Notes under the pieces: generated by a model | What the model was told of the DNA's origin: nothing | The model's input: only the letters and a program-made list of their open reading frames with translations | Databases searched by the model: none | In this document: piece by piece, positions 52,557 through 61,113 of the stretch | Layout of the letters: each line of letters starts with the position of its first letter | Numbering within the stretch: position 1 is the first letter of the stretch | Made by a program: the position numbers and the translations under genes | NCBI GenBank assembly: GCA_035280265.1 | Contig: DATEGE010000031.1 | Coordinates: 3,995-67,994, forward strand | Source of the DNA: Gemmatimonadales bacterium | GTDB lineage: Bacteria > Gemmatimonadota > Gemmatimonadetes > Gemmatimonadales > GWC2-71-9 | Direction of reading: 5' to 3' | DNA: 64,000 bases

Positions 52557-54155
52557 TCAGCGCAGCCGGGGCGGCGACGGCGGCTGCGCGAGGGGCGATT
52601 CCACGGCGAGCTCCTGTGCGAGCACCGCCAAGCGGTCCGCCAGCGCCTCAAGCTCCGTCAGCCGGCGCCGGCTCTTGTATCGATAGGTCGTCCGAGCGGT
52701 CACATAGGTCGTCGCCATCCACAAGGGGATGATCGCTCCGATTGCGCCCGCGGGGGCGTGCAACGCGCCGACCACTAGTCCGATCACCGGCCACACGCCG
52801 CCCCCACCCATGCCCCCGCCGATGCCGCCAAAGATCGCGCCGATCAGCTGGGCGAGACTCTCCTGAATCGTGATGCGCGTCCTGCCCGCGCGCACCGTCA
52901 CCACGATTTCCAGCTTGCGTTGCGATACGCCGGGTGACGCGGTCCAAGAAAACGACCGCCCCAGCTGGCTGACCTGCCCCACGTTCTTGAGGATGCGCCG
53001 CGTCTCATCCACCATGACCGAGTAGTCGCTCTCGGGCACCTCGCCGTCCACGATGCGCTCGATCGAGATCACCGTCGGTCCCCCTACCCAGGGATTGTTG
53101 CCGGTCGGAATCTCCACGACGGGCAGCGACGTGGCGCTCGGCGCGCGCATCGAATTCGCCGCGGCGCGCACGTTCGTGGCCGCAATGCCCACCTCGGCGG
53201 CGAGCGCTTCGACGCCGCCGATGGTCATGGCGCCGCTCGCCGTTGGCGTGCTCGCTTCGAGCTCGCTGGCCCGCTTGACGATCTCTTGGACTTCGCTGCC
53301 GCTATAGCGCCGGCGCACCGGCGTCGTCGCGGAGAGCTCCCCGATCAGCGCCGCGGTGGTTGGGGTGCGCTGGTCGTGCCGGATCGCGAGTCCCCGCACC
53401 AGCGCCGCTTCGACTGCCGGGCCCGCCTCCGTCAGCCGGGTGCGGTGCGCCGGCGCCGCTTCGAGGAAACGGCCGGCGCGCACCGCATCCTCCGTCGGCC
53501 AGCGGCCCGGCGGCTCGCCCACCAGCATCTCGTAGATCACCACCGCGAGGCTGTAGACGTCGGTCTTCTGGTCGAGGTCGGTGAGCCCGGCTGCTTGCTC
53601 GGGGCTCATGTAGCCCGGCGTGCCGACCGGGAACCCGGTGCGGGTCAGGTTCGCGCCCCCCGCAGTGCTGATCGCCTTGGCGATCCCGAAGTCGGCGACG
53701 ATCGGGTGCCCCTGCGAGAACAGCACGTTCTCGGGCTTGATGTCGCGGTGAAAGACGCCCATGCGGTGCGCATACGAGAGGGCGTCGGCCACCGGCGCGG
53801 CGATCGCCAGCGCGTCGACGGTGCGCAAGCGCCGTCCGCCCTCGAGCCGTTGGCGCAAGGAGCCGCCCTCGAGGTACGGCATGACGTAGTACAGGAATCC
53901 CGCCGCTTCTCCGGAGTCGTACAGGGCGAGGATGTGCGGGTGGGTGAGACCCGCCGCGATCTGGATCTCCTTGAGGAAGCGCTCGACGCCGAGGAACGCC
54001 GCGAGGCCGGGAAGCAACACCTTGAGCGCGACGTCGCGCCGGTGCTTCGGGTCCGCCGCTAGGTAGACGGTCGCCATGCCGCCACGTCCCAGCACGCGGC
54101 GCAACTGGTAGCGCCCGTCGAGCGCGGCCTGGAGATCGCTGGGGAGGTCGGTCAC
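52557..54155 (-). CDS. Hanks-type Ser/Thr protein kinase with C-terminal membrane domain
   Basis: LGRGGMATVY, VALK, HRDIKPEN, DFGIA, GTPGYMSPEQ, DVYSL. Confidence 0.92.
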   Translation of the reverse strand: MTDLPSDLQAALDGRYQLRRVLGRGGMATVYLAADPKHRRDVALKVLLPGLAAFLGVERFLKEIQIAAGLTHPHILALYDSGEAAGFLYYVMPYLEGGSLRQRLEGGRRLRTVDALAIAAPVADALSYAHRMGVFHRDIKPENVLFSQGHPIVADFGIAKAISTAGGANLTRTGFPVGTPGYMSPEQAAGLTDLDQKTDVYSLAVVIYEMLVGEPPGRWPTEDAVRAGRFLEAAPAHRTRLTEAGPAVEAALVRGLAIRHDQRTPTTAALIGELSATTPVRRRYSGSEVQEIVKRASELEASTPTASGAMTIGGVEALAAEVGIAATNVRAAANSMRAPSATSLPVVEIPTGNNPWVGGPTVISIERIVDGEVPESDYSVMVDETRRILKNVGQVSQLGRSFSWTASPGVSQRKLEIVVTVRAGRTRITIQESLAQLIGAIFGGIGGGMGGGGVWPVIGLVVGALHAPAGAIGAIIPLWMATTYVTARTTYRYKSRRRLTELEALADRLAVLAQELAVESPLAQPPSPPRLR

Positions 54156-55120
54156 GGCGGAGCTGTGGCGGGGCGCTCCAAGGCTGGACGGTCCCAGCCG
54201 GCGAGGTTCGCGCCGGCGGTGTAGGTGCTTTCCAGGAAGGCGAGCAGCAGATCGTCGGGCCGCTCTGCCGCGCGGACCGCGTCGTACGGGAGAATGTATT
54301 CACCCAAGTCGGAGCTGAAGAACGCGGGAGCCGGGACAGCCGCCTGACCGTAACCGGGCGGCGTGGGATAGCTGTACGCATAGAATGCCGGCTCAGCGAC
54401 GGCCGTGCTCAACCCCCTGCCAGGCCAGAAGCCGCAACTGGCGCACTCGTGTGAATACGCTTCCACCATCACGTAATCGGGGCAATTGGGAACACCGCCA
54501 CCGTGCCGCGGCGCCGTCCGACCGGAGAAGCGGGTGCAGGCGAGGTCGAACCCGCCCCACCAAAAGTGCGACGGACTCGACTTGCCGAGGAACCGGCCAC
54601 GGAACCGCTTCAAAACCTGGTCGACGTGGCTCAGGATGCGCCACCAGCGCTGCGCGTAGTCCGGATCGTACGCCGCGTGCTCGCGGTCGTCGGCGAACGG
54701 AATCGCCCGCGGCACCTCGACCGGCACCGGCCAGAGCTTCAGCGTGATGCCCAGCTCGGCGAGCGTCGCCAGGTACTGGCGGTAGAAGTCGGCGACCGGT
54801 TGCGCGACGAGCGGAAGGAAGCGCGTCGTCCCTTCGCTGGTGCGCACCACGAGCCGGTGCTCCACGAAGTCGAAGGCGACATCGAACGTCAGTGGACCGG
54901 CGACGAGCGGGCTGGTCGTCAGCCCTCGAGCGGTGAGCTGCAGCGCGACGTGCCACCAGTGGTTCTGCGGGGGCGCGAAGGCCAGGCTCGTCTTGCCGAC
55001 GATCTGCGTCCACATGTGGAGGGTCGCGTACGTGTCCTGCCAGGCGGGGAGTGGCAACGCCGCCCATGCGCCCGTTACCGCGCCCACGCGGGACAGGTCA
55101 GACCTCCATGTCGTCGACAA
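54152..55120 (-). CDS. DUF5996 family protein
   Basis: W.DTYATLHMWTQIVGK, NHWW, FLGKSSP.HFWWG.FDLA.TRFSGR, EAYSHEC.S.GFWPG, FYAYSYP. Confidence 0.8.
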   Translation of the reverse strand: MSTTWRSDLSRVGAVTGAWAALPLPAWQDTYATLHMWTQIVGKTSLAFAPPQNHWWHVALQLTARGLTTSPLVAGPLTFDVAFDFVEHRLVVRTSEGTTRFLPLVAQPVADFYRQYLATLAELGITLKLWPVPVEVPRAIPFADDREHAAYDPDYAQRWWRILSHVDQVLKRFRGRFLGKSSPSHFWWGGFDLACTRFSGRTAPRHGGGVPNCPDYVMVEAYSHECASCGFWPGRGLSTAVAEPAFYAYSYPTPPGYGQAAVPAPAFFSSDLGEYILPYDAVRAAERPDDLLLAFLESTYTAGANLAGWDRPALERPATAPP

Positions 55121-55358
55121 AGCAGTACCGCCAGTCTTCGCCCGGCTCGAACGAGCGGACGATGGCGTGTGCCGACGTGTGGGCGTGCTTGCGCGCGTGA
55201 CGGTTGGGCGAGGAATCGCAACAGCCGACGTGCCCGCAGCTGAGACACAGTCGGAGATGCACCCACTGGCTCCCGCTCGCTAGGCATTCCTCGCACCCGT
55301 TCGGCGTACGAGCCCGCACGTTACGGATCTGATCGAGATGTGTGCACCGAGTGGTCAT
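55098..55358 (-). CDS. stand-alone UBP-type zinc finger protein
   Basis: C.H..CEEC..WVHLRLCLSCGHVGCCDSS.NRHA..H. Confidence 0.88.
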   Translation of the reverse strand: MTTRCTHLDQIRNVRARTPNGCEECLASGSQWVHLRLCLSCGHVGCCDSSPNRHARKHAHTSAHAIVRSFEPGEDWRYCFVDDMEV

Positions 55359-56550: not shown

Positions 56551-57588
56551 TCACTGCAGGACCAGCACCGCTACCATCCCGCCCAACCCGTCGGGGACCG
56601 TTGCCACGCCCTTCGGCACCACCCAATCCCGACCGTCCACCTGCAGGTTAAAATGGTAGAGCCCGGGCTTCAGAGACAGGGTTCCCTCCCACACCTCGCC
56701 CCCGACCGCGCGCAACAGGTACGGCTGCCAGGCGTTCCAGTCGCCGGCGATGGCAACCATGCGGACGCCGCTGAACCGGAACCGGACGACGACGCTGTCG
56801 CCGCGCCGAGTGAGCACGAGCGGCGCCAGCTTCCTGGCCGCCGCGGCCCGCCCGGCGCGGGTCGAACCGATCCGCACCCCGAGCGTGAAGAATCCGCCGC
56901 GGGGAAAGCCCTGGTAAGGGTCCCGCAGGTAGCTACCGCCACCCACTTCCACCGATACTGAGGGCGCAACCGCCAGCTGCAGGAAGGCGCTTCCCGCGCT
57001 GTAAGAGCCGTATACCGGCGACACACGGGCCTCGGGCGAGATGGACAGCACTGCCGGTCCGCGCTCGACCGTTGCAACGGCGCTAACGTCGGTGAACCAC
57101 GCCCCGACAAAGTGAGTGGGCTCCACGATCACCTGCCACTCTGTGCCGGAGGCGCGGCCGCCCGGCCGCCACCAGGCGCGTGCCCGGGTATGGAGCGCCA
57201 CCACCGACGAGTCGTTGGCGATCCACCCCGCGGAAGGCCCCGCGCCGAGACCGAACCCCCACTGTGGCGCGGACCAGAGCACCTCGCCCAACCCGTGCAC
57301 CGCCGCTGTCCAAGCGCCCCCCGTCCAGGACGTGCCGGCCAGGTTACCCTCTGCTGCGAGCCGCCAGCGACCCGCGATACGCGGCGTGCTTCCCCAAGCA
57401 TAGAGGCGACCATGGCTTGCCCAGACTCCTGCAGGCAGCGAAGCAAAGAAAGTGGAAGCCGACACCACCAAGGACGGGGCAGCGTACCGCAGTTCGGGGG
57501 CGAGGCTGGCCGAGCTGAAGCTCGAGCCGCTTTCGGTGCGCACGGTACCGATGCCGGCGCCCAGTGACCCGCGCACCTGGCCGGCCAT
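56551..57588 (-). CDS. exported beta-rich protein with C-terminal glycogen-binding (AMPK1_CBM/CBM48-like) domain
   Basis: C-terminal VAIAGDWNAW..GEVWEGTLSLKPGLYHFNLQVDGRDWVVP..DGLGG; amphipathic beta-strand N-terminal region. Start unresolved: a signal-like segment is encoded upstream of ATG 57588. Confidence 0.72.
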   Translation of the reverse strand: MAGQVRGSLGAGIGTVRTESGSSFSSASLAPELRYAAPSLVVSASTFFASLPAGVWASHGRLYAWGSTPRIAGRWRLAAEGNLAGTSWTGGAWTAAVHGLGEVLWSAPQWGFGLGAGPSAGWIANDSSVVALHTRARAWWRPGGRASGTEWQVIVEPTHFVGAWFTDVSAVATVERGPAVLSISPEARVSPVYGSYSAGSAFLQLAVAPSVSVEVGGGSYLRDPYQGFPRGGFFTLGVRIGSTRAGRAAAARKLAPLVLTRRGDSVVVRFRFSGVRMVAIAGDWNAWQPYLLRAVGGEVWEGTLSLKPGLYHFNLQVDGRDWVVPKGVATVPDGLGGMVAVLVLQ

Positions 57589-57684
57589 GGGGGCGGGCGC
57601 ACCCGCGAGGCTCGACGCGAGCAGCAGCCCGACGGAGAGGAGCGTCGGGAGGGCGGGTGCTGAACGCTGAGAGTGGGAAACACA

Positions 57685-57714
57685 TGTAGGGGCGCAGCTC
57701 GCTGCGCCCCTACA
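57685..57714. repeat. GTAG-type REP palindrome
   Basis: TGTAGGGGCGCAGC-TC-GCTGCGCCCCTACA, perfect 14-bp arms. Confidence 0.85.
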
Positions 57715-57739
57715 CTGCTGTGCGACGCCTACCGTGTCG

Positions 57740-58165
57740 TTATGGCCTATGACGACCGACCCGGTTCTTGCTTGGAGCAGGAGGGGGGTTATCCTGCCCG
57801 TTGTTGTCTTCCTTATCACCTTCACCTTGCGCCTGCGCAGCGTCCTTGGAACCCTCGTCCACGTCAGGCCCCTCATTCACGTCGGGACCGTCGTTTACGT
57901 CGGTGCCCTCGTTCGAGTTCGGACCCTCATCAACGTCTGGGCCCTCCTGGGCATCCTTCTGGTCCTCGGCCTTGTCGCCGTCGGACTGGTTGTGATCGAC
58001 GTCGCCAGCGGTACGAACGGCATCGGCGGCTGGGCGGACCACCTCGCCCTGGAACTGCATGGCCTTGCCGTGTGCCACCGCCGCTTTGGTTCTGGGCGCC
58101 TGCGCCGCCAGCAACACCGGTACGGCGAGCCAGGCCACCGCGAACCCGAGAAGTCTGCAAAGCAT
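57740..58165 (-). CDS. exported acidic low-complexity protein with 5 x hexapeptide EGPDV(N/D) repeats
   Basis: GGAGG RBS, signal peptide, 18-bp repeats at 57852-57941 varying mostly at codon third positions. Confidence 0.65.
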   Translation of the reverse strand: MLCRLLGFAVAWLAVPVLLAAQAPRTKAAVAHGKAMQFQGEVVRPAADAVRTAGDVDHNQSDGDKAEDQKDAQEGPDVDEGPNSNEGTDVNDGPDVNEGPDVDEGSKDAAQAQGEGDKEDNNGQDNPPPAPSKNRVGRHRP

Positions 58166-58367
58166 GCTGCCTCCATTTTCACGGGGGAGTCCCGTATCGC
58201 CCGTAAAGATGGCTGCCGGCGCCTCCAGGTAACCAGCCGACGGGGAAGTCCCGCTAGGCCAGCGCGTTACCAATATCACCCGTACCACTCTTTAAGGGTA
58301 GCACCGGTTGCCGGTGACGCGCGTCACGTCTACCATCCTGGGCACACAGCCGGGCGAGAGGACAGGG

Positions 58368-58919
58368 GTGGAGTCCAGGGACACGCTCACGGACGCTGAA
58401 GTCATCCGAGCCGTGCTCGCGGGAGACGTGGAGCGCTATGCGGTGCTGGTCGAGCGGTACCGTGATCGCTACGCGCGCTATGCGACGCGAATGTTGGGAT
58501 CGCGCGACGCGGCCGAAGACGCGGTACAGGACGCGCTGGTGCGGGCGTTCGACCGGCTGGCGGATTGCCGGGACCCCGACAAGTTCGCCGGGTGGCTGTT
58601 CCTGATTCTCCGGAACCGCTGCTTCGCGGACCAGCGACGACGCCAGCGCGAGGGGCGCATGCCGGAGGAGGCCGGCGCCAACGTCGCGACGCCGGAGCGG
58701 TCTGAGGACGCGGTCGAACAGCGGGAGAGGAGTCAGGCGCTGGAGCGGGCCGTGGGGCAGCTGACGTCGGAGCAGCGTGAGGCGTTCGTGTTGAAGCACG
58801 TGGCGGGACTGCCGTACGAGGAGATCTCGCAGCTCACCGGAGCGACGGTCGCCTCGCTGAAGATGCGGATGCACCGCGCGTATGATCGATTGCGAGAACT
58901 CATGAAGGAGCATCTCTGA
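58368..58919 (+). CDS. ECF RNA polymerase sigma factor
   Basis: AEDAVQDALVRAF (region 2), QREAFVLKHVAGLPYEEI..VASLKMRMHRA (region 4); GTG start estimated. Confidence 0.92.
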   Translation: MESRDTLTDAEVIRAVLAGDVERYAVLVERYRDRYARYATRMLGSRDAAEDAVQDALVRAFDRLADCRDPDKFAGWLFLILRNRCFADQRRRQREGRMPEEAGANVATPERSEDAVEQRERSQALERAVGQLTSEQREAFVLKHVAGLPYEEISQLTGATVASLKMRMHRAYDRLRELMKEHL

Positions 58920-59542
58920 TGGCGACGTATCATCCGTTGGTCAAACGCCTGCTGGACGGCGAACTCTCGCTGGCCGACCTGCCGGCCAAGCTCCGAGCCG
59001 AGGGCGAGGAGGCGTTGCGCCTGGTCGCGGCCGTCGATCGCGCGCCGGTCGCGCTCTCGCCCGCCCTCGACACACGCGTGATGGAGACCGTGCGTCGGCA
59101 CGCCAAGTCCCTGGCGCGCCGGGCCTGGCGCTGGCTCGCCGCCCCCCGGGAGGTGGCGGTCCGGGTGCGCGTGCGTCCCTGGGCCGTGTGGGGCGGGGCG
59201 CTGGCTGCCGCTGCAGCGATCGCCCTGCTCCTGGCTCGCCCCTCCTCGCCTGCGCCAAGCGTCGTGTACGTGCGGTTTGTACTGTACGCGCCCGGCGCGA
59301 AGCAAGTCGCCGTGGCCGGTACCTTCAACCAGTGGGATCAGCAGGCCACGCCACTCGTGCCGGCAGGGATGGACGGCGTGTGGTCGACCACCGTCGCGCT
59401 CCCCGTCGGTCAGCATCAGTATGCGTTCGTGGTCGATGGCCGGCGCTGGGTCGCGGACCCGGCCGCACCCGGAGTGGACGACGGGTTCGGTCGCCGCAAC
59501 AGCGTGGTAGCGGTGACACCTCAAGGAGCCCGGACGCTGTGA
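58919..59542 (+). CDS. predicted single-pass anti-sigma factor with glycogen-binding (AMPK1_CBM/CBM48-like) domain
   Basis: TGATG overlap with sigma; N-terminal cytosolic part, one TM, then VAVAGTFNQW..GVW..YAFVVDGRRWVADP..DDGFGRRNSV. Confidence 0.75.
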   Translation: MATYHPLVKRLLDGELSLADLPAKLRAEGEEALRLVAAVDRAPVALSPALDTRVMETVRRHAKSLARRAWRWLAAPREVAVRVRVRPWAVWGGALAAAAAIALLLARPSSPAPSVVYVRFVLYAPGAKQVAVAGTFNQWDQQATPLVPAGMDGVWSTTVALPVGQHQYAFVVDGRRWVADPAAPGVDDGFGRRNSVVAVTPQGARTL

Positions 59543-60207
59543 GAGCTTTCTCGCTCGCCCTCGGGATGGTGATGGGCGCGCTGGCGTCGTTACTCCCGTG
59601 TGGGCTTGCGGCGCAGGATGTGGCGGCGCGCCTGAACGGGCGCGTTCCGGCGGCCGTCGCGCAGGCCGTGCAGGAGATCGCCACGGACGCGCGAGCCCGA
59701 GGCCTGCCGGTCGAGCCGCTGCTCCAAAAGGCGCTCGAGGGAGGGGCCAAGGGCGTTCCGGCCGACCGTGTGATCGCGGCTGTGCGGGTCTTGGCTGGAC
59801 GACTCGGTGACGCGCAAGGCGCCCTGCAGGGCGGCGGTCTTCGCTCCCCGAGCCCGGAAGCGCTGGAGACCGGAGCATATGCGCTCAACGCGGGACTCAG
59901 CTCGCGTCAGGTGCGCGAGCTGGCGAGCGTGAGCCGGGAGCCGTACGATCCCGTCCTGACGCTGCGTATCGCGGCGACCCTGACCGCGCTGGGTGTGCCA
60001 TCGGGGCAGGGCGTGGACCTGGTGGAGCACATGATTCGAGACCACCGCGGCCCCGGCGAGCTGCTCGACCTGCCGAACGAAGTGCAGCAGGGTATGGCGC
60101 GAGGCGCAACTGCCGCGGAGGCCGCCGAGGGACTCGACGGGAGAGACGAGCACCGCGGCGAGCGTCACCAGGAGGATGAGCAGCGCCGCCCCCCGCACAA
60201 GCCCTGA
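59539..60207 (+). CDS. exported helical hypothetical protein
   Basis: GTGA overlap with the anti-sigma; signal peptide ending LAA-QD; Ala/Leu-rich helical body. Confidence 0.7.
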   Translation: MRAFSLALGMVMGALASLLPCGLAAQDVAARLNGRVPAAVAQAVQEIATDARARGLPVEPLLQKALEGGAKGVPADRVIAAVRVLAGRLGDAQGALQGGGLRSPSPEALETGAYALNAGLSSRQVRELASVSREPYDPVLTLRIAATLTALGVPSGQGVDLVEHMIRDHRGPGELLDLPNEVQQGMARGATAAEAAEGLDGRDEHRGERHQEDEQRRPPHKP

Positions 60208-60228: not shown

Positions 60229-61113
60229 CTACCCCTTCTTGACGTTCATTCTCTCCAATGCAGCGCGCAGTCCATGCGCGAGGTCCAGCGCGTCCTTGTC
60301 TCCCCAAAAGTGCATGAAGAAAAGCCGCGGAGTCTCCCCCAACATGTGACTATGGAGAGCCGTCACGTCGATGCCATTCGACCTGAGGGCTCGAATGACG
60401 GGATTCACCTCGCTTTCGATCAGGACGAAATCACCCGTCACCGCCGCCTTGCCGCCGGCCGTTGGTTGAAAGTTGATGGCCGTTGCCACGCCCATCCCCG
60501 GCGGTACGTCCATGCCGCCCACGGTGACCGGCTCGGCACGAGCAACGGCCACCTGGTAGACGCCGCCATTCATCCTCCCGTGGTACCCGAGGGTTTGAGC
60601 GATCAGCGCGGTGTCGAGGGACGTCGAGGCCGGCGCTGACGGGGCCGTCGGTGGTGCGAGCGGAGTGTTCGTGACCGCGAGGGCCGCACGCACCGACGCC
60701 GCGAGCTTGGCCGGCGCGCCGCCGCCGGCGATGTGCATGTAGAGGACGTGCGGTGACTCGTGCCGCAGGTGGTTATGCACGGCCGTCTGCTCGATCCCTG
60801 ACTCCTGGAGCTTATCGATCACGCGCTCGATCTCGCTCTCGAGCAGCACGAGATCGCCCATCAGCATCGCCTCATCGTCGCCCGTCTGTTTGAGGGCCAC
60901 CCAGGAGCCCAACGCCAACGCTGGCAGCACGACGACGCCGTTCACCGTCACATGGAGATCAGCACGCGGGAACGCCACGCGATACACGTCTCCCGGGAGC
61001 ATCGCACCCGTCCTTCCGAATGCCTGCTCGACTTGCTTCCAGTCGACCTGCGCCGCGAGTCCCGTCGGCACGAGGGTGAGGGCGATGACGACGAGCGGTT
61101 TCCACGATGCCAT
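60229..61113 (-). CDS. DUF1259 domain protein (tandem domains), exported
   Basis: YRVAFPRADL, LMGDLVLLESE, TAVHNHL, MGVATAINFQ, TALHSHM..PRLFFMHFW. Confidence 0.82.
   Translation of the reverse strand: MASWKPLVVIALTLVPTGLAAQVDWKQVEQAFGRTGAMLPGDVYRVAFPRADLHVTVNGVVVLPALALGSWVALKQTGDDEAMLMGDLVLLESEIERVIDKLQESGIEQTAVHNHLRHESPHVLYMHIAGGGAPAKLAASVRAALAVTNTPLAPPTAPSAPASTSLDTALIAQTLGYHGRMNGGVYQVAVARAEPVTVGGMDVPPGMGVATAINFQPTAGGKAAVTGDFVLIESEVNPVIRALRSNGIDVTALHSHMLGETPRLFFMHFWGDKDALDLAHGLRAALERMNVKKG

What the first reader, a model, noticed from the sequence alone, without database searches (positions are those of the whole stretch)
56551..60207. Candidate undescribed alpha-glucan-sensing ECF system: sigma + CBM-bearing anti-sigma + second CBM protein + two exported unknowns
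Seen: an ECF sigma (58368-58919) is translationally coupled to a single-pass protein whose C-terminal domain has the G.FN.W / W / Y.F.VDG.W / N pattern of AMPK-beta/CBM48 glycogen-binding modules, and then to an exported helical protein. Divergently, an acidic repeat protein and a second protein ending in the same CBM type are encoded. Established: ECF sigmas are usually co-transcribed with single-pass anti-sigmas, and AMPK1_CBM/CBM48 binds glycogen or maltodextrins, normally in the cytosol. Inference: an extracytoplasmic glycogen-binding module acting as the anti-sigma sensor, with a matching CBM on an envelope protein, suggests a trans-envelope alpha-glucan signalling circuit I do not recognise from characterised ECF groups.
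Basis: partly seen in the sequence, partly recalled or inferred. Interest (0 to 1): 0.8.

Follow-up and report, generated by a model that had tools for sequence, protein, structure and literature searches.

The report
ECF sigma switch with CBM48 sensor
This is a real, widely conserved but unstudied bacterial signalling cassette in which the membrane protein that holds back a stress-type sigma factor carries a glycogen-binding-type domain outside the cytoplasm and always travels with an unknown secreted helical protein; what it senses is still unknown, and alpha-glucan is only one candidate.

Summary
At 58368-60207 (+) an ECF sigma, a single-pass membrane protein ending in an AMPK-beta/CBM48-type domain, and an exported all-helical protein are joined by overlapping stop and start codons. 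On the other strand lie an exported acidic repeat protein and a protein that models as a 14-strand outer-membrane barrel with a C-terminal CBM48.

The sigma / CBM48-protein / helical-protein triad is not a one-off:
- The genome holds three old paralogous copies.
- All 72 related Gemmatimonadota loci with enough flank have the triad.
- 187 of 301 sampled genomes of the phylum carry the helical family.
- The triad also occurs in Pontiella, Ca. Thiodiazotropha and Ca. Eisenbacteria.

The barrel-CBM48 protein sits next to the triad in 49 of 80 loci. The acidic protein is lineage-specific and not part of the system.

I read it as an uncharacterised ECF envelope-signalling module. The "alpha-glucan" part is weak. 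The two sugar-platform tryptophans are invariant, but the polar ligand residues are not. The genome has no glycogen branching or debranching enzymes and only one GH13. No glucan genes flank any copy I examined.

The cytoplasmic end matches no known anti-sigma domain by sequence. I found no paper describing this design. I class it as a new variant of a known kind.

The parts
58368..58919 (+). ECF (group IV) sigma factor, 183 aa. An alternative in-frame TTG start lies at 58308.
   Evidence: Pfam Sigma70_r2 and Sigma70_r4_2 match. The nearest solved relatives are SigE, SigW and RpoE. In a tree it falls in one clade with 29 other module sigmas, apart from 20 other ECF sigmas of the same genome.
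58919..59542 (+). Presumed anti-sigma factor, 207 aa: cytoplasmic N-terminus (residues 1-86), one membrane span (87-108), extracytoplasmic CBM48.
   Evidence: Its start overlaps the sigma stop as TGATG. Hydropathy and the positive-inside rule give the topology. The sigma-to-CBM gene order holds in 72 of 72 loci with enough flank. No anti-sigma Pfam family or solved-structure match was found.
59285..59524 (+). AMPK-beta-type CBM48 domain of the anti-sigma factor (residues 123-202).
   Evidence: AMPK1_CBM matches at 4.6e-15. It aligns to AMPK beta-2 CBM 2f15 at 8.6e-12. The Trp100 and Trp133 equivalents are kept in 78/78 and 76/78 copies.
59539..60207 (+). Exported helical-repeat protein, 222 aa, with an invariant LP.EPL.Q.ALEG motif.
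   Evidence: The GTG start overlaps the TGA stop. The model has pLDDT 92 and 10 helices. No natural PDB fold match was found. No Pfam family matches any of 75 members. The family has 2733 clusters at 50% identity. It follows the CBM48 gene in every locus.
56551..57660 (-). Predicted outer-membrane 14-strand beta-barrel with a C-terminal periplasmic CBM48. The upper end is approximate because the start codon is unresolved.
   Evidence: The model has pLDDT 86. The best PDB matches are OmpG (1.7e-8, TM 0.62-0.69) and CymA. An orthologue is adjacent in 49 of 80 loci. This genome has a paralogue at C5:34508-35662.
56554..56823 (-). CBM48 domain of the barrel protein.
   Evidence: AMPK1_CBM scores 25-25.6 bits in the window copy and matches 36 of 38 orthologues. 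Both platform Trp are kept in 49/49 and 48/49 copies, and the Asn150 equivalent is Val.
57740..58165 (-). Exported acidic protein with GPDV(D/N)E repeats. It is a lineage-specific neighbour, not a core part.
   Evidence: It has a signal peptide and an acidic composition and an 18-nt tandem repeat. It is present in L007 but replaced by another gene in L008 and in L207-L211.
57689..57710 (-). 9-bp GC hairpin between the acidic gene and the barrel gene.
   Evidence: Read directly from the sequence. It is conserved in L007, where only the loop is changed. The terminator scan did not call it.
58315..58326 (.). Perfect palindrome TGACGCGCGTCA in the divergent intergenic region. It holds the family's GTGAC -35-like word on both strands.
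   Evidence: It is shared with L007. The family's promoter-like motif is not found at the right spacing in this copy.

Best explanation
This is one of three paralogous copies of a conserved extracytoplasmic-function signalling module.

The ECF sigma is made together with a single-pass membrane protein. The short cytoplasmic N-terminus of that protein holds the sigma inactive. This step is inferred from gene order, start/stop coupling and topology.

The C-terminal CBM48 domain of the membrane protein lies in the periplasm. There it reads a signal through its conserved two-tryptophan platform, most likely an envelope or imported glycan. It probably acts in a complex with the co-translated helical-repeat protein. 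Where present, it may also act with the periplasmic CBM48 that hangs from a 14-strand outer-membrane barrel. All of this is inferred.

The signal would then lead to removal of the anti-sigma factor, probably by regulated intramembrane proteolysis. The freed sigma would transcribe its own operon, and so more helical and barrel protein. In most copies this would run from a GTGAC-N17/18-GGT(C/A) promoter. The motif is shown; its use is inferred.

Alpha-glucan is a possible ligand but not the favoured one.
For: - Domains and topology are established.
- Stop and start codons overlap, and independent gene calls on orthologues show the same overlaps.
- The genome has three paralogous modules.
- The sigma / CBM48 / helical order holds in 72 of 72 Gemmatimonadota loci with enough flank. 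A second CBM48 protein is adjacent in 49 of 80.
- The helical family occurs in 187 of 301 genomes of the phylum.
- The triad also occurs in Ca. Thiodiazotropha, Pontiella sulfatireligans and Ca. Eisenbacteria. hhalign supports homology of their helical proteins at 95% and 86% probability.
- 30 of 31 module sigmas form one clade.
- A bipartite motif lies about 30 nt upstream of the sigma in 61 of 74 loci. GTGAC paired with GGTC occurs in 44 of 74, against at most 10 in shuffles. The own C104 and C5 copies have it.
- The platform Trp residues are invariant in 127 CBM copies.
- The barrel model and its OmpG match place the second CBM48 in the periplasm.
- Site-2 protease (Peptidase_M50) genes are present in the genome.
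Against: - The cytoplasmic N-terminus matches no anti-sigma Pfam family in any of 63 members. A profile of it finds no solved anti-sigma domain; the best E-value is 0.25.
- No binding, proteolysis or transcription data exist, and no RNA runs hold this sequence.
- The window copy itself lacks the family promoter motif at the right spacing.
- In loci where the barrel gene lies upstream, it has a sigma-70-like TTGCCA-N17-TATATG promoter, not the ECF motif.
- The polar sugar-binding residues of AMPK beta are not conserved.
- The predicted regulon outside the operons is noisy.
Confidence: 0.6

Rival explanations
1. The CBM48 folds are not glycan sensors. They are protein-protein coupling elements of a trans-envelope relay. 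In this relay the barrel's periplasmic CBM48, the helical-repeat protein and the anti-sigma CBM48 contact each other. They would report the state of the outer membrane or of barrel assembly.
For: - Lys126 is lost and Asn150 is Val in all barrel CBMs.
- The genome has no glycogen enzymes and no glucan genes lie nearby.
- Three envelope partners are tightly linked across phyla.
- The barrel gene can have its own housekeeping-type promoter, as expected of a constitutive sensor part.
- Earlier scan notes raise the same idea, but they are leads only.
Against: - The two Trp that form the sugar platform in AMPK beta are invariant in all 127 copies. That is most simply explained by a carbohydrate ligand.
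- 31 of 80 loci, including the own C104 copy, have no adjacent barrel.
- No interaction was tested.
Confidence: 0.25
2. One reading: the module senses alpha-glucan (glycogen, starch or maltodextrin) outside the cytoplasm and switches on genes for its use.
For: - The best sequence matches are the AMPK beta CBMs and the CBM48 domains of GlgB and pullulanase.
- The Trp100, Trp133 and Leu146-equivalent positions are conserved.
- The best fold matches of the barrel are OmpG and the cyclodextrin channel CymA.
- The sample is a rhizosphere metagenome, where plant glucans are available.
Against: - The genome (94.6% complete) has three such modules but only one GH13. It has no other CBM48-bearing enzyme.
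- No glycoside hydrolase or sugar transporter is conserved beside the module.
- Candidate regulon members are exported proteins of unknown function.
- Similarity among 14-strand barrels is generic.
Confidence: 0.1
3. The membrane protein is not an anti-sigma factor. The sigma is regulated in another way, and the CBM48, helical and barrel proteins are simply its co-transcribed envelope products.
For: The N-terminus shows no sequence similarity to known anti-sigma domains. In some subtypes it is only about 45 residues long.
Against: - The gene position directly after the sigma is invariant, with overlapping codons.
- The protein has the N-in single-pass topology typical of anti-sigma factors.
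- A cytoplasmic segment (P..LD.RVM) just before the membrane span is conserved across subtypes and phyla.
- Short class II-type anti-sigma domains are also missed by Pfam. This point rests on established knowledge and was not tested here.
Confidence: 0.05

Closest known systems
B. subtilis SigW-RsiW and E. coli RpoE-RseA-RseB (ECF sigma held by a single-pass anti-sigma factor and released by regulated intramembrane proteolysis; RseB is a periplasmic partner of RseA)
   Same: - The sigma is RpoE/SigW-like.
- The next gene is co-translated and encodes an N-in single-pass protein.
- A third co-transcribed exported protein could play an RseB-like guarding role.
- M50 site-2 proteases are present in the genome.
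   Different: - The cytoplasmic domain is not recognisably a class I anti-sigma domain.
- The sensor domain is a CBM48.
- The third protein is an all-helical repeat with no fold relative, unlike RseB.
- An outer-membrane barrel partner is often present.
Clostridium (Acetivibrio) thermocellum SigI-RsgI polysaccharide-sensing pairs (PMC10328401, PMC6582324)
   Same: The anti-sigma factor carries a carbohydrate-binding module outside the membrane. Several paralogous pairs occur in one genome.
   Different: - SigI is not an ECF sigma.
- The RsgI N-domain and its autoproteolytic periplasmic domain are absent here.
- RsgI works in Gram-positive cells, with no outer-membrane partner.
- RsgI uses CBM3, CBM42 or PA14 modules rather than CBM48.
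- RsgI loci are tied to cellulosome genes, whereas no glycan-use genes accompany this module.
FecI-FecR-FecA type cell-surface signalling
   Same: An outer-membrane barrel with a periplasmic domain is paired with an inner-membrane anti-sigma factor and an ECF sigma. The gene arrangements include divergent and co-directional forms.
   Different: - The barrel has 14 strands and is OmpG-like. It is not a 22-strand TonB-dependent transducer.
- There is no FecR domain and no Plug or signalling-extension match.
- The periplasmic domain is at the C-terminus.
AMPK beta-subunit carbohydrate-binding module (CBM48; PDB 2f15, 1z0m)
   Same: It is the best sequence match. The Trp100, Trp133 and Leu146-equivalent positions are conserved.
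   Different: The location is extracytoplasmic. Lys126 is not kept, and Asn150 is kept in only about half of the anti-sigma copies and in none of the barrel copies.

Membership tests
ECF (group IV) sigma-70 factors | Only the sigma-2 and sigma-4 regions are present, in a protein of about 170-200 aa. | tested here: met
   Sigma70_r2 at 1.4e-13 and Sigma70_r4_2 at 1.9e-14. TIGR02937 scores 93 bits, over its 42.9 cut-off. No NCBIfam equivalog reaches its cut-off.
A named ECF group of the 2021 re-classification (PMC7826278) | Assignment by the group HMMs and a conserved genomic context. | not testable with these tools
   The group HMMs and supplements are not held. The main text does not mention glycogen, CBM or AMPK. 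The sigmas do form their own clade.
Class I anti-sigma factors (ASDI; zf-HC2 / RsiW-like) | A recognisable N-terminal anti-sigma domain. | tested here: not met
   No anti-sigma Pfam family matches any of 63 members at E<=0.1. A profile of 27 N-termini finds no anti-sigma chain in the PDB; the best E-value is 0.25, to an unrelated protein. Structure and binding were not tested.
Membrane anti-sigma factors in general | The gene lies directly after its sigma and is co-transcribed. The protein is single-pass with a cytoplasmic N-terminus. | tested here: met
   The codons overlap as TGATG. Most of the 72 orthologues also overlap the sigma stop. There is one span at residues 87-108, with Arg-rich sequence before it.
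CBM48 / AMPK1_CBM | A sequence match over the Pfam gathering score. | tested here: met
   The anti-sigma copy scores 56 bits against a cut-off of 26.8. The window barrel copy is borderline at 25-25.6 bits, but 36 of 38 orthologues match.
CBM48 / AMPK1_CBM | The alpha-glucan-binding residues of AMPK beta-1 (W100, K126, W133, L146, N150; the residue list is from established knowledge). | tested here: inconclusive
   W, W and F/L are conserved. K126 is replaced by M, A, T or N. N150 is kept in 40 of 78 anti-sigma copies and in none of the barrel copies.
SigI/RsgI systems | A SigI-type sigma, the RsgI N-terminal domain and an autoproteolytic periplasmic domain. | tested here: not met
   The sigma is ECF-type. 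The membrane protein has no Pfam match other than CBM families.
TonB-dependent cell-surface signalling (FecIRA) | A FecR domain in the anti-sigma factor and a 22-strand TonB-dependent transducer. | tested here: not met
   No FecR, Plug or TonB_dep_Rec match was found. The barrel models with 14 strands.
OmpG-like 14-strand outer-membrane barrels | A 14-strand barrel fold. | tested here: met
   AF2 gives 14 strands at pLDDT 86. Foldseek matches OmpG 2wvp at 1.7e-8 with TM 0.62-0.69. Identity is about 10%, so this is fold likeness only.

The most novel reading that the evidence does not exclude
The module is a TonB-independent trans-envelope sensing device that has not been described. One CBM48 is tethered to the inner membrane on the anti-sigma factor. 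A second CBM48 hangs from the periplasmic end of an OmpG-like outer-membrane barrel. A helical-repeat periplasmic protein works with both. Together they read a periplasmic or envelope glycan, or the barrel's cargo, and set the activity of a dedicated ECF sigma. The device is ancient, is shared by several phyla, and has been multiplied into paralogous channels within single genomes.
Probability: 0.3. Interest if true: 0.8.

Novelty: new variant of a known kind. Interest (0 to 1): 0.6.

Why it matters
ECF sigma/anti-sigma pairs are a main route by which bacteria sense the envelope, and very few of their input domains have known ligands. Here a eukaryote-style glycogen-binding fold is used as the extracytoplasmic input. 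It comes with two further partner families that have no annotation at all. The helical family alone has about 2,700 clusters at 50% identity and no Pfam model.

The module is abundant in soil and rhizosphere Gemmatimonadota, which are poorly studied. It also exists in cultured strains: Roseisolibacter sp. H3M3-2, Pontiella sulfatireligans and P. desulfatans. So the ligand, the regulon and the role of the barrel can be tested directly.

At present the proteins are annotated only as "glycogen-binding domain-containing" or "glycoside hydrolase family 13". That wording misleads metabolic reconstructions.

Tried and rejected
- **Anti-sigma homology.** A Pfam scan of 63 members and a profile search of the PDB found nothing. 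The anti-sigma role therefore stays an inference from context.
- **Fold relatives of the helical protein.** Only designed helical repeats came up, with E>=0.017 and TM<=0.42. I ran no further search on re-ranking them.
- **Promoter of the window copy.** The family motif is absent at the right spacing on either strand. The best position-weight-matrix (PWM) score is 8.8 on the minus strand, against 18-23 for the two paralogues. A weak ATCAC-N16-GGGTA at 58275-58300 is seen by eye only.
- **Regulon prediction by genome-wide PWM scan.** It recovers the two paralogous operons and a divergent lipoprotein gene beside the C5 copy. Otherwise it is noisy, and no glucan genes appear.
- **Expression data.** Only two DNA runs of a rhizosphere metagenome hold the sequence, and no RNA runs do.
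- **ECF-group assignment.** The supplements of PMC7826278 are not held.
- **Acidic protein as a system part.** I rejected this because it is not conserved beyond the nearest relative.
- **A cytoplasmic CBM.** I rejected this on the charge distribution around the membrane span.
- **Start of the barrel gene.** Neither the ATG at 57685 nor the GTG at 57683 is in frame. A near-cognate CTG or an assembly indel remains possible.

Full report
**What is in the window**

ORF listing and Pfam show five genes.

- ECF sigma, 58368-58919 (+). It matches Sigma70_r2 at 1.4e-13 and Sigma70_r4_2 at 1.9e-14.
- A 207-aa membrane protein, 58919-59542 (+). Its C-terminal 80 residues match AMPK1_CBM at 4.6e-15 (56 bits, cut-off 26.8) and CBM_48 at 1.1e-11.
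- A 222-aa protein, 59539-60207 (+), with no family match.
- A 141-aa acidic protein, 57740-58165 (-).
- A protein of about 345-370 aa ending at 56551 (-). Its last 70 residues give a borderline AMPK1_CBM match of 25 bits.

The sigma stop and the next start overlap as TGATG. The third gene starts at a GTG that overlaps the TGA stop. Independent gene calls on a 73%-identical orthologue show the same 4-nt overlaps.

The membrane protein has one hydrophobic span at residues 87-108. Four Arg lie in the 15 residues before it and one after it, so the CBM48 faces out of the cytoplasm. The helical, acidic and barrel proteins all carry signal-peptide-like N-termini.

**It is a conserved module, present three times in this genome**

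A scan of the window's own assembly for AMPK1_CBM gave five hits. Reading the other loci showed two more copies of the same gene order.

- C104:17151-15306 has sigma, CBM48 protein and helical protein.
- C5:32816-35662 has the same three genes followed on the same strand by a barrel-like protein ending in CBM48.

The three helical proteins share an invariant LP.EPL.Q.ALEG motif.

Using that motif I fetched 80 loci from one-genome-per-species contigs. All were Gemmatimonadota. With HMMs built from the paralogues, every one of the 72 loci that had upstream sequence showed the order sigma, CBM48 protein, helical protein.

A second CBM48 protein was adjacent in 49 of the 80 loci:
- downstream in 38;
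- upstream on the same strand in 9;
- divergent in 2, which is the window's arrangement.

The helical family is present in 187 of 301 genomes sampled across the phylum, covering 78 of 127 genera. Genomes often hold 2-5 copies.

**It is not confined to the phylum**

Earlier notes of this scan claimed a wide spread, so I tested it independently. I scanned all species genomes for a degenerate DNA pattern encoding FN(D/N)W ... Y.F.VDG. This returned 120 loci from many phyla.

My HMMs found the full triad in about 21 further Gemmatimonadota. These include the isolate Roseisolibacter sp. H3M3-2 and members of the Longimicrobiales. Outside the phylum:

- Ca. Thiodiazotropha (Gammaproteobacteria) has the triad.
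- Pontiella sulfatireligans F21 (Kiritimatiellota) has the triad.
- Ca. Eisenbacteria has the triad together with the barrel.
- One MAG labelled Thermotogae has the sigma plus CBM48 pair only.

hhalign supports homology of the Thiodiazotropha and Pontiella helical proteins to the Gemmatimonadota family, at 95% and 86% probability. The LP.E...K.EG.AK motif aligns in both.

In a maximum-likelihood tree, 30 of the 31 module sigmas form one clade (support 91/83), including those two outsiders. That clade is separate from the 20 other ECF sigmas of this genome. The three paralogues of this genome sit in three old subclades.

A profile of the helical family finds 2733 clusters at 50% identity with E<=1e-3, and 1584 with E<=1e-10. 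None of 75 members has a Pfam match.

**The parts**

- The helical protein models with pLDDT 92 as ten helices. It has no natural fold relative in the PDB. Only designed helical repeats match, with E>=0.017.
- The second CBM48 protein models with pLDDT 86 as 14 beta-strands followed by a beta-sandwich.
  - The best PDB matches are the 14-strand porins OmpG (1.7e-8, TM 0.62-0.69) and CymA.
  - By the usual rule that both ends of an even-stranded outer-membrane barrel lie in the periplasm, its CBM48 is periplasmic. This step is an inference.
- The anti-sigma CBM aligns best to the AMPK beta-2 and beta-1 CBMs. I compared 78 anti-sigma and 49 barrel CBMs at the AMPK beta ligand positions.

| AMPK beta position | Anti-sigma CBMs | Barrel CBMs |
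|---|---|---|
| Trp100 | kept in 78/78 | kept in 49/49 |
| Trp133 | kept in 76/78 | kept in 48/49 |
| Leu146 | Phe in 71/78 | Phe in 45/49 |
| Lys126 | never kept | never kept |
| Asn150 | Asn in 40/78 | never Asn (Val in 44/49) |

**Regulation**

A bipartite motif, GTGAC-N17/18-GGT(C/A), lies about 30 nt upstream of the sigma in 61 of 74 loci. The words GTGAC and GGTC co-occur in 44 of 74 loci, against at most 10 in shuffles. It has the layout of an ECF promoter.

A matrix built from it recovers the C104 and C5 operons of this genome among the top 13 of 44 hits in 3 Mb. It also finds a divergent site beside the C5 copy, in front of a DUF4382/Big_2 lipoprotein gene.

The window copy and its nearest relative L007 do not have the motif at the right spacing. 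They share instead a 12-bp palindrome, TGACGCGCGTCA, at 58315-58326. It carries GTGAC on both strands.

In loci where the barrel gene lies upstream of the sigma, it has a conserved sigma-70-like TTGCCA-N17-TATATG promoter. So the barrel is not always under the ECF promoter.

**Is it an alpha-glucan sensor?**

The fold and the aromatic platform allow it, and the barrel's best matches include sugar channels. Four observations count against it.

- The 94.6%-complete genome has no CBM_48 hit other than the module's own five copies, so no GlgB, GlgX or TreZ.
- The genome has a single GH13, about 58 kb away.
- The flanks of orthologous loci hold MetE, NifU, an ATP-grasp enzyme and methyltransferases.
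- No glycan-use genes are conserved near any of the 80 loci at the level I examined.

I therefore keep "glycan of unknown kind, possibly envelope-derived" as the likeliest input. A protein-relay reading is the main rival, and alpha-glucan nutrient sensing is a minor one.

**Is it an anti-sigma factor?**

Position, coupling and topology say yes. So does a conserved cytoplasmic segment (P..LD.RVM) just before the span, which is also visible in the Thiodiazotropha and Pontiella proteins.

Sequence searches do not confirm it. In some subtypes the N-terminus is only about 45 residues long. From memory, the segment resembles the last helix of RsiW's cytoplasmic domain. That is a lead, not a test.

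**Literature**

Full-text searches returned nothing relevant. The terms were:
- anti-sigma with "glycogen-binding domain";
- CBM48 with ECF;
- "glycogen recognition site" with sigma factor;
- AMPK1_CBM alone.

The main text of the ECF re-classification does not mention such a domain, and its supplements are not held. Public annotations call the protein "glycogen-binding domain-containing", "isoamylase early set domain" or "glycoside hydrolase family 13". None calls it an anti-sigma factor.

The nearest described idea is the CBM-bearing RsgI anti-sigma-I factors of C. thermocellum. They differ in sigma family, domains and cell envelope.

**Verdict**

This is a real, large and unannotated ECF module with a CBM48 input, an obligatory helical partner and a frequent outer-membrane CBM48 partner.

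It is a new variant of a known kind of system rather than a new kind. It has already been noticed many times in this scan. The ligand and the mechanism remain open.

Noticed in passing
window 59539-59620; 58090-58165 (-); 61040-61113 (-); whole genome: Predicted signal peptides here end ...AAQ. In the helical family Ala25 and Gln26 are invariant or nearly so in 75 sequences, and the barrel family has a near-invariant Gln. A crude genome-wide count finds Gln after the first AxA in 12.7% of 236 signal-like N-termini, against 3.5% background. This looks like the Bacteroidetes 'Q-rule' (PMC5837995), whose text does not mention Gemmatimonadetes.
   Followed up: partly
window 57580-57690 (-): The barrel gene has no in-frame ATG, GTG or TTG ahead of its signal-peptide-like segment. 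The relative L007 starts at a TTG where the window has CTG (57627 or 57624). Possible causes are a near-cognate start, an assembly indel or a frameshift.
   Followed up: partly
window 57689-57710: A 9-bp GC-rich hairpin lies between the acidic gene and the barrel gene. It is conserved in L007, where the loop is flipped (CGAG versus CTCG). It lacks a clear U-tail, so it could be a partial terminator or an RNA-stability element.
   Followed up: partly
L008:2192-2749 (-); L207:4925-5281 (-): In more distant window-type loci the divergent operon encodes a small protein with only a Sigma70_r2 region, followed by a 109-aa protein, where this window has the acidic protein. A sigma-2-only protein beside an ECF module is unusual.
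   Followed up: no
own genome, C5:32700-32830: The C5 paralogue has two promoter-like GTGAC...GGT sites back to back on opposite strands. The second faces a 467-aa DUF4382 / CarboxypepD_reg / Big_2 lipoprotein gene, a candidate regulon member.
   Followed up: partly
window 55098-55358 (-): A small 86-aa Cys/His-rich protein (C.H...C..C...C..C...H...H) looks like a UBP-type zinc finger by eye. It lies between a DUF5996 gene and a secreted GH5 gene.
   Followed up: no
window 52557-54155 (-): A 532-aa ORF whose N-terminal half carries protein-kinase-type motifs (HRDIKPEN) by eye and whose tail is Gly-rich and hydrophobic. It was not scanned against Pfam and shows no evident link to the module.
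   Followed up: no
L091, L137, L145, L150, L167, L169, L176, L190, L202 (Bacteroidota and others): The CBM pattern scan also picked up proteins of about 490 aa made of four tandem AMPK-type CBM48 repeats in many Bacteroidota. This is a different and apparently common architecture.
   Followed up: no
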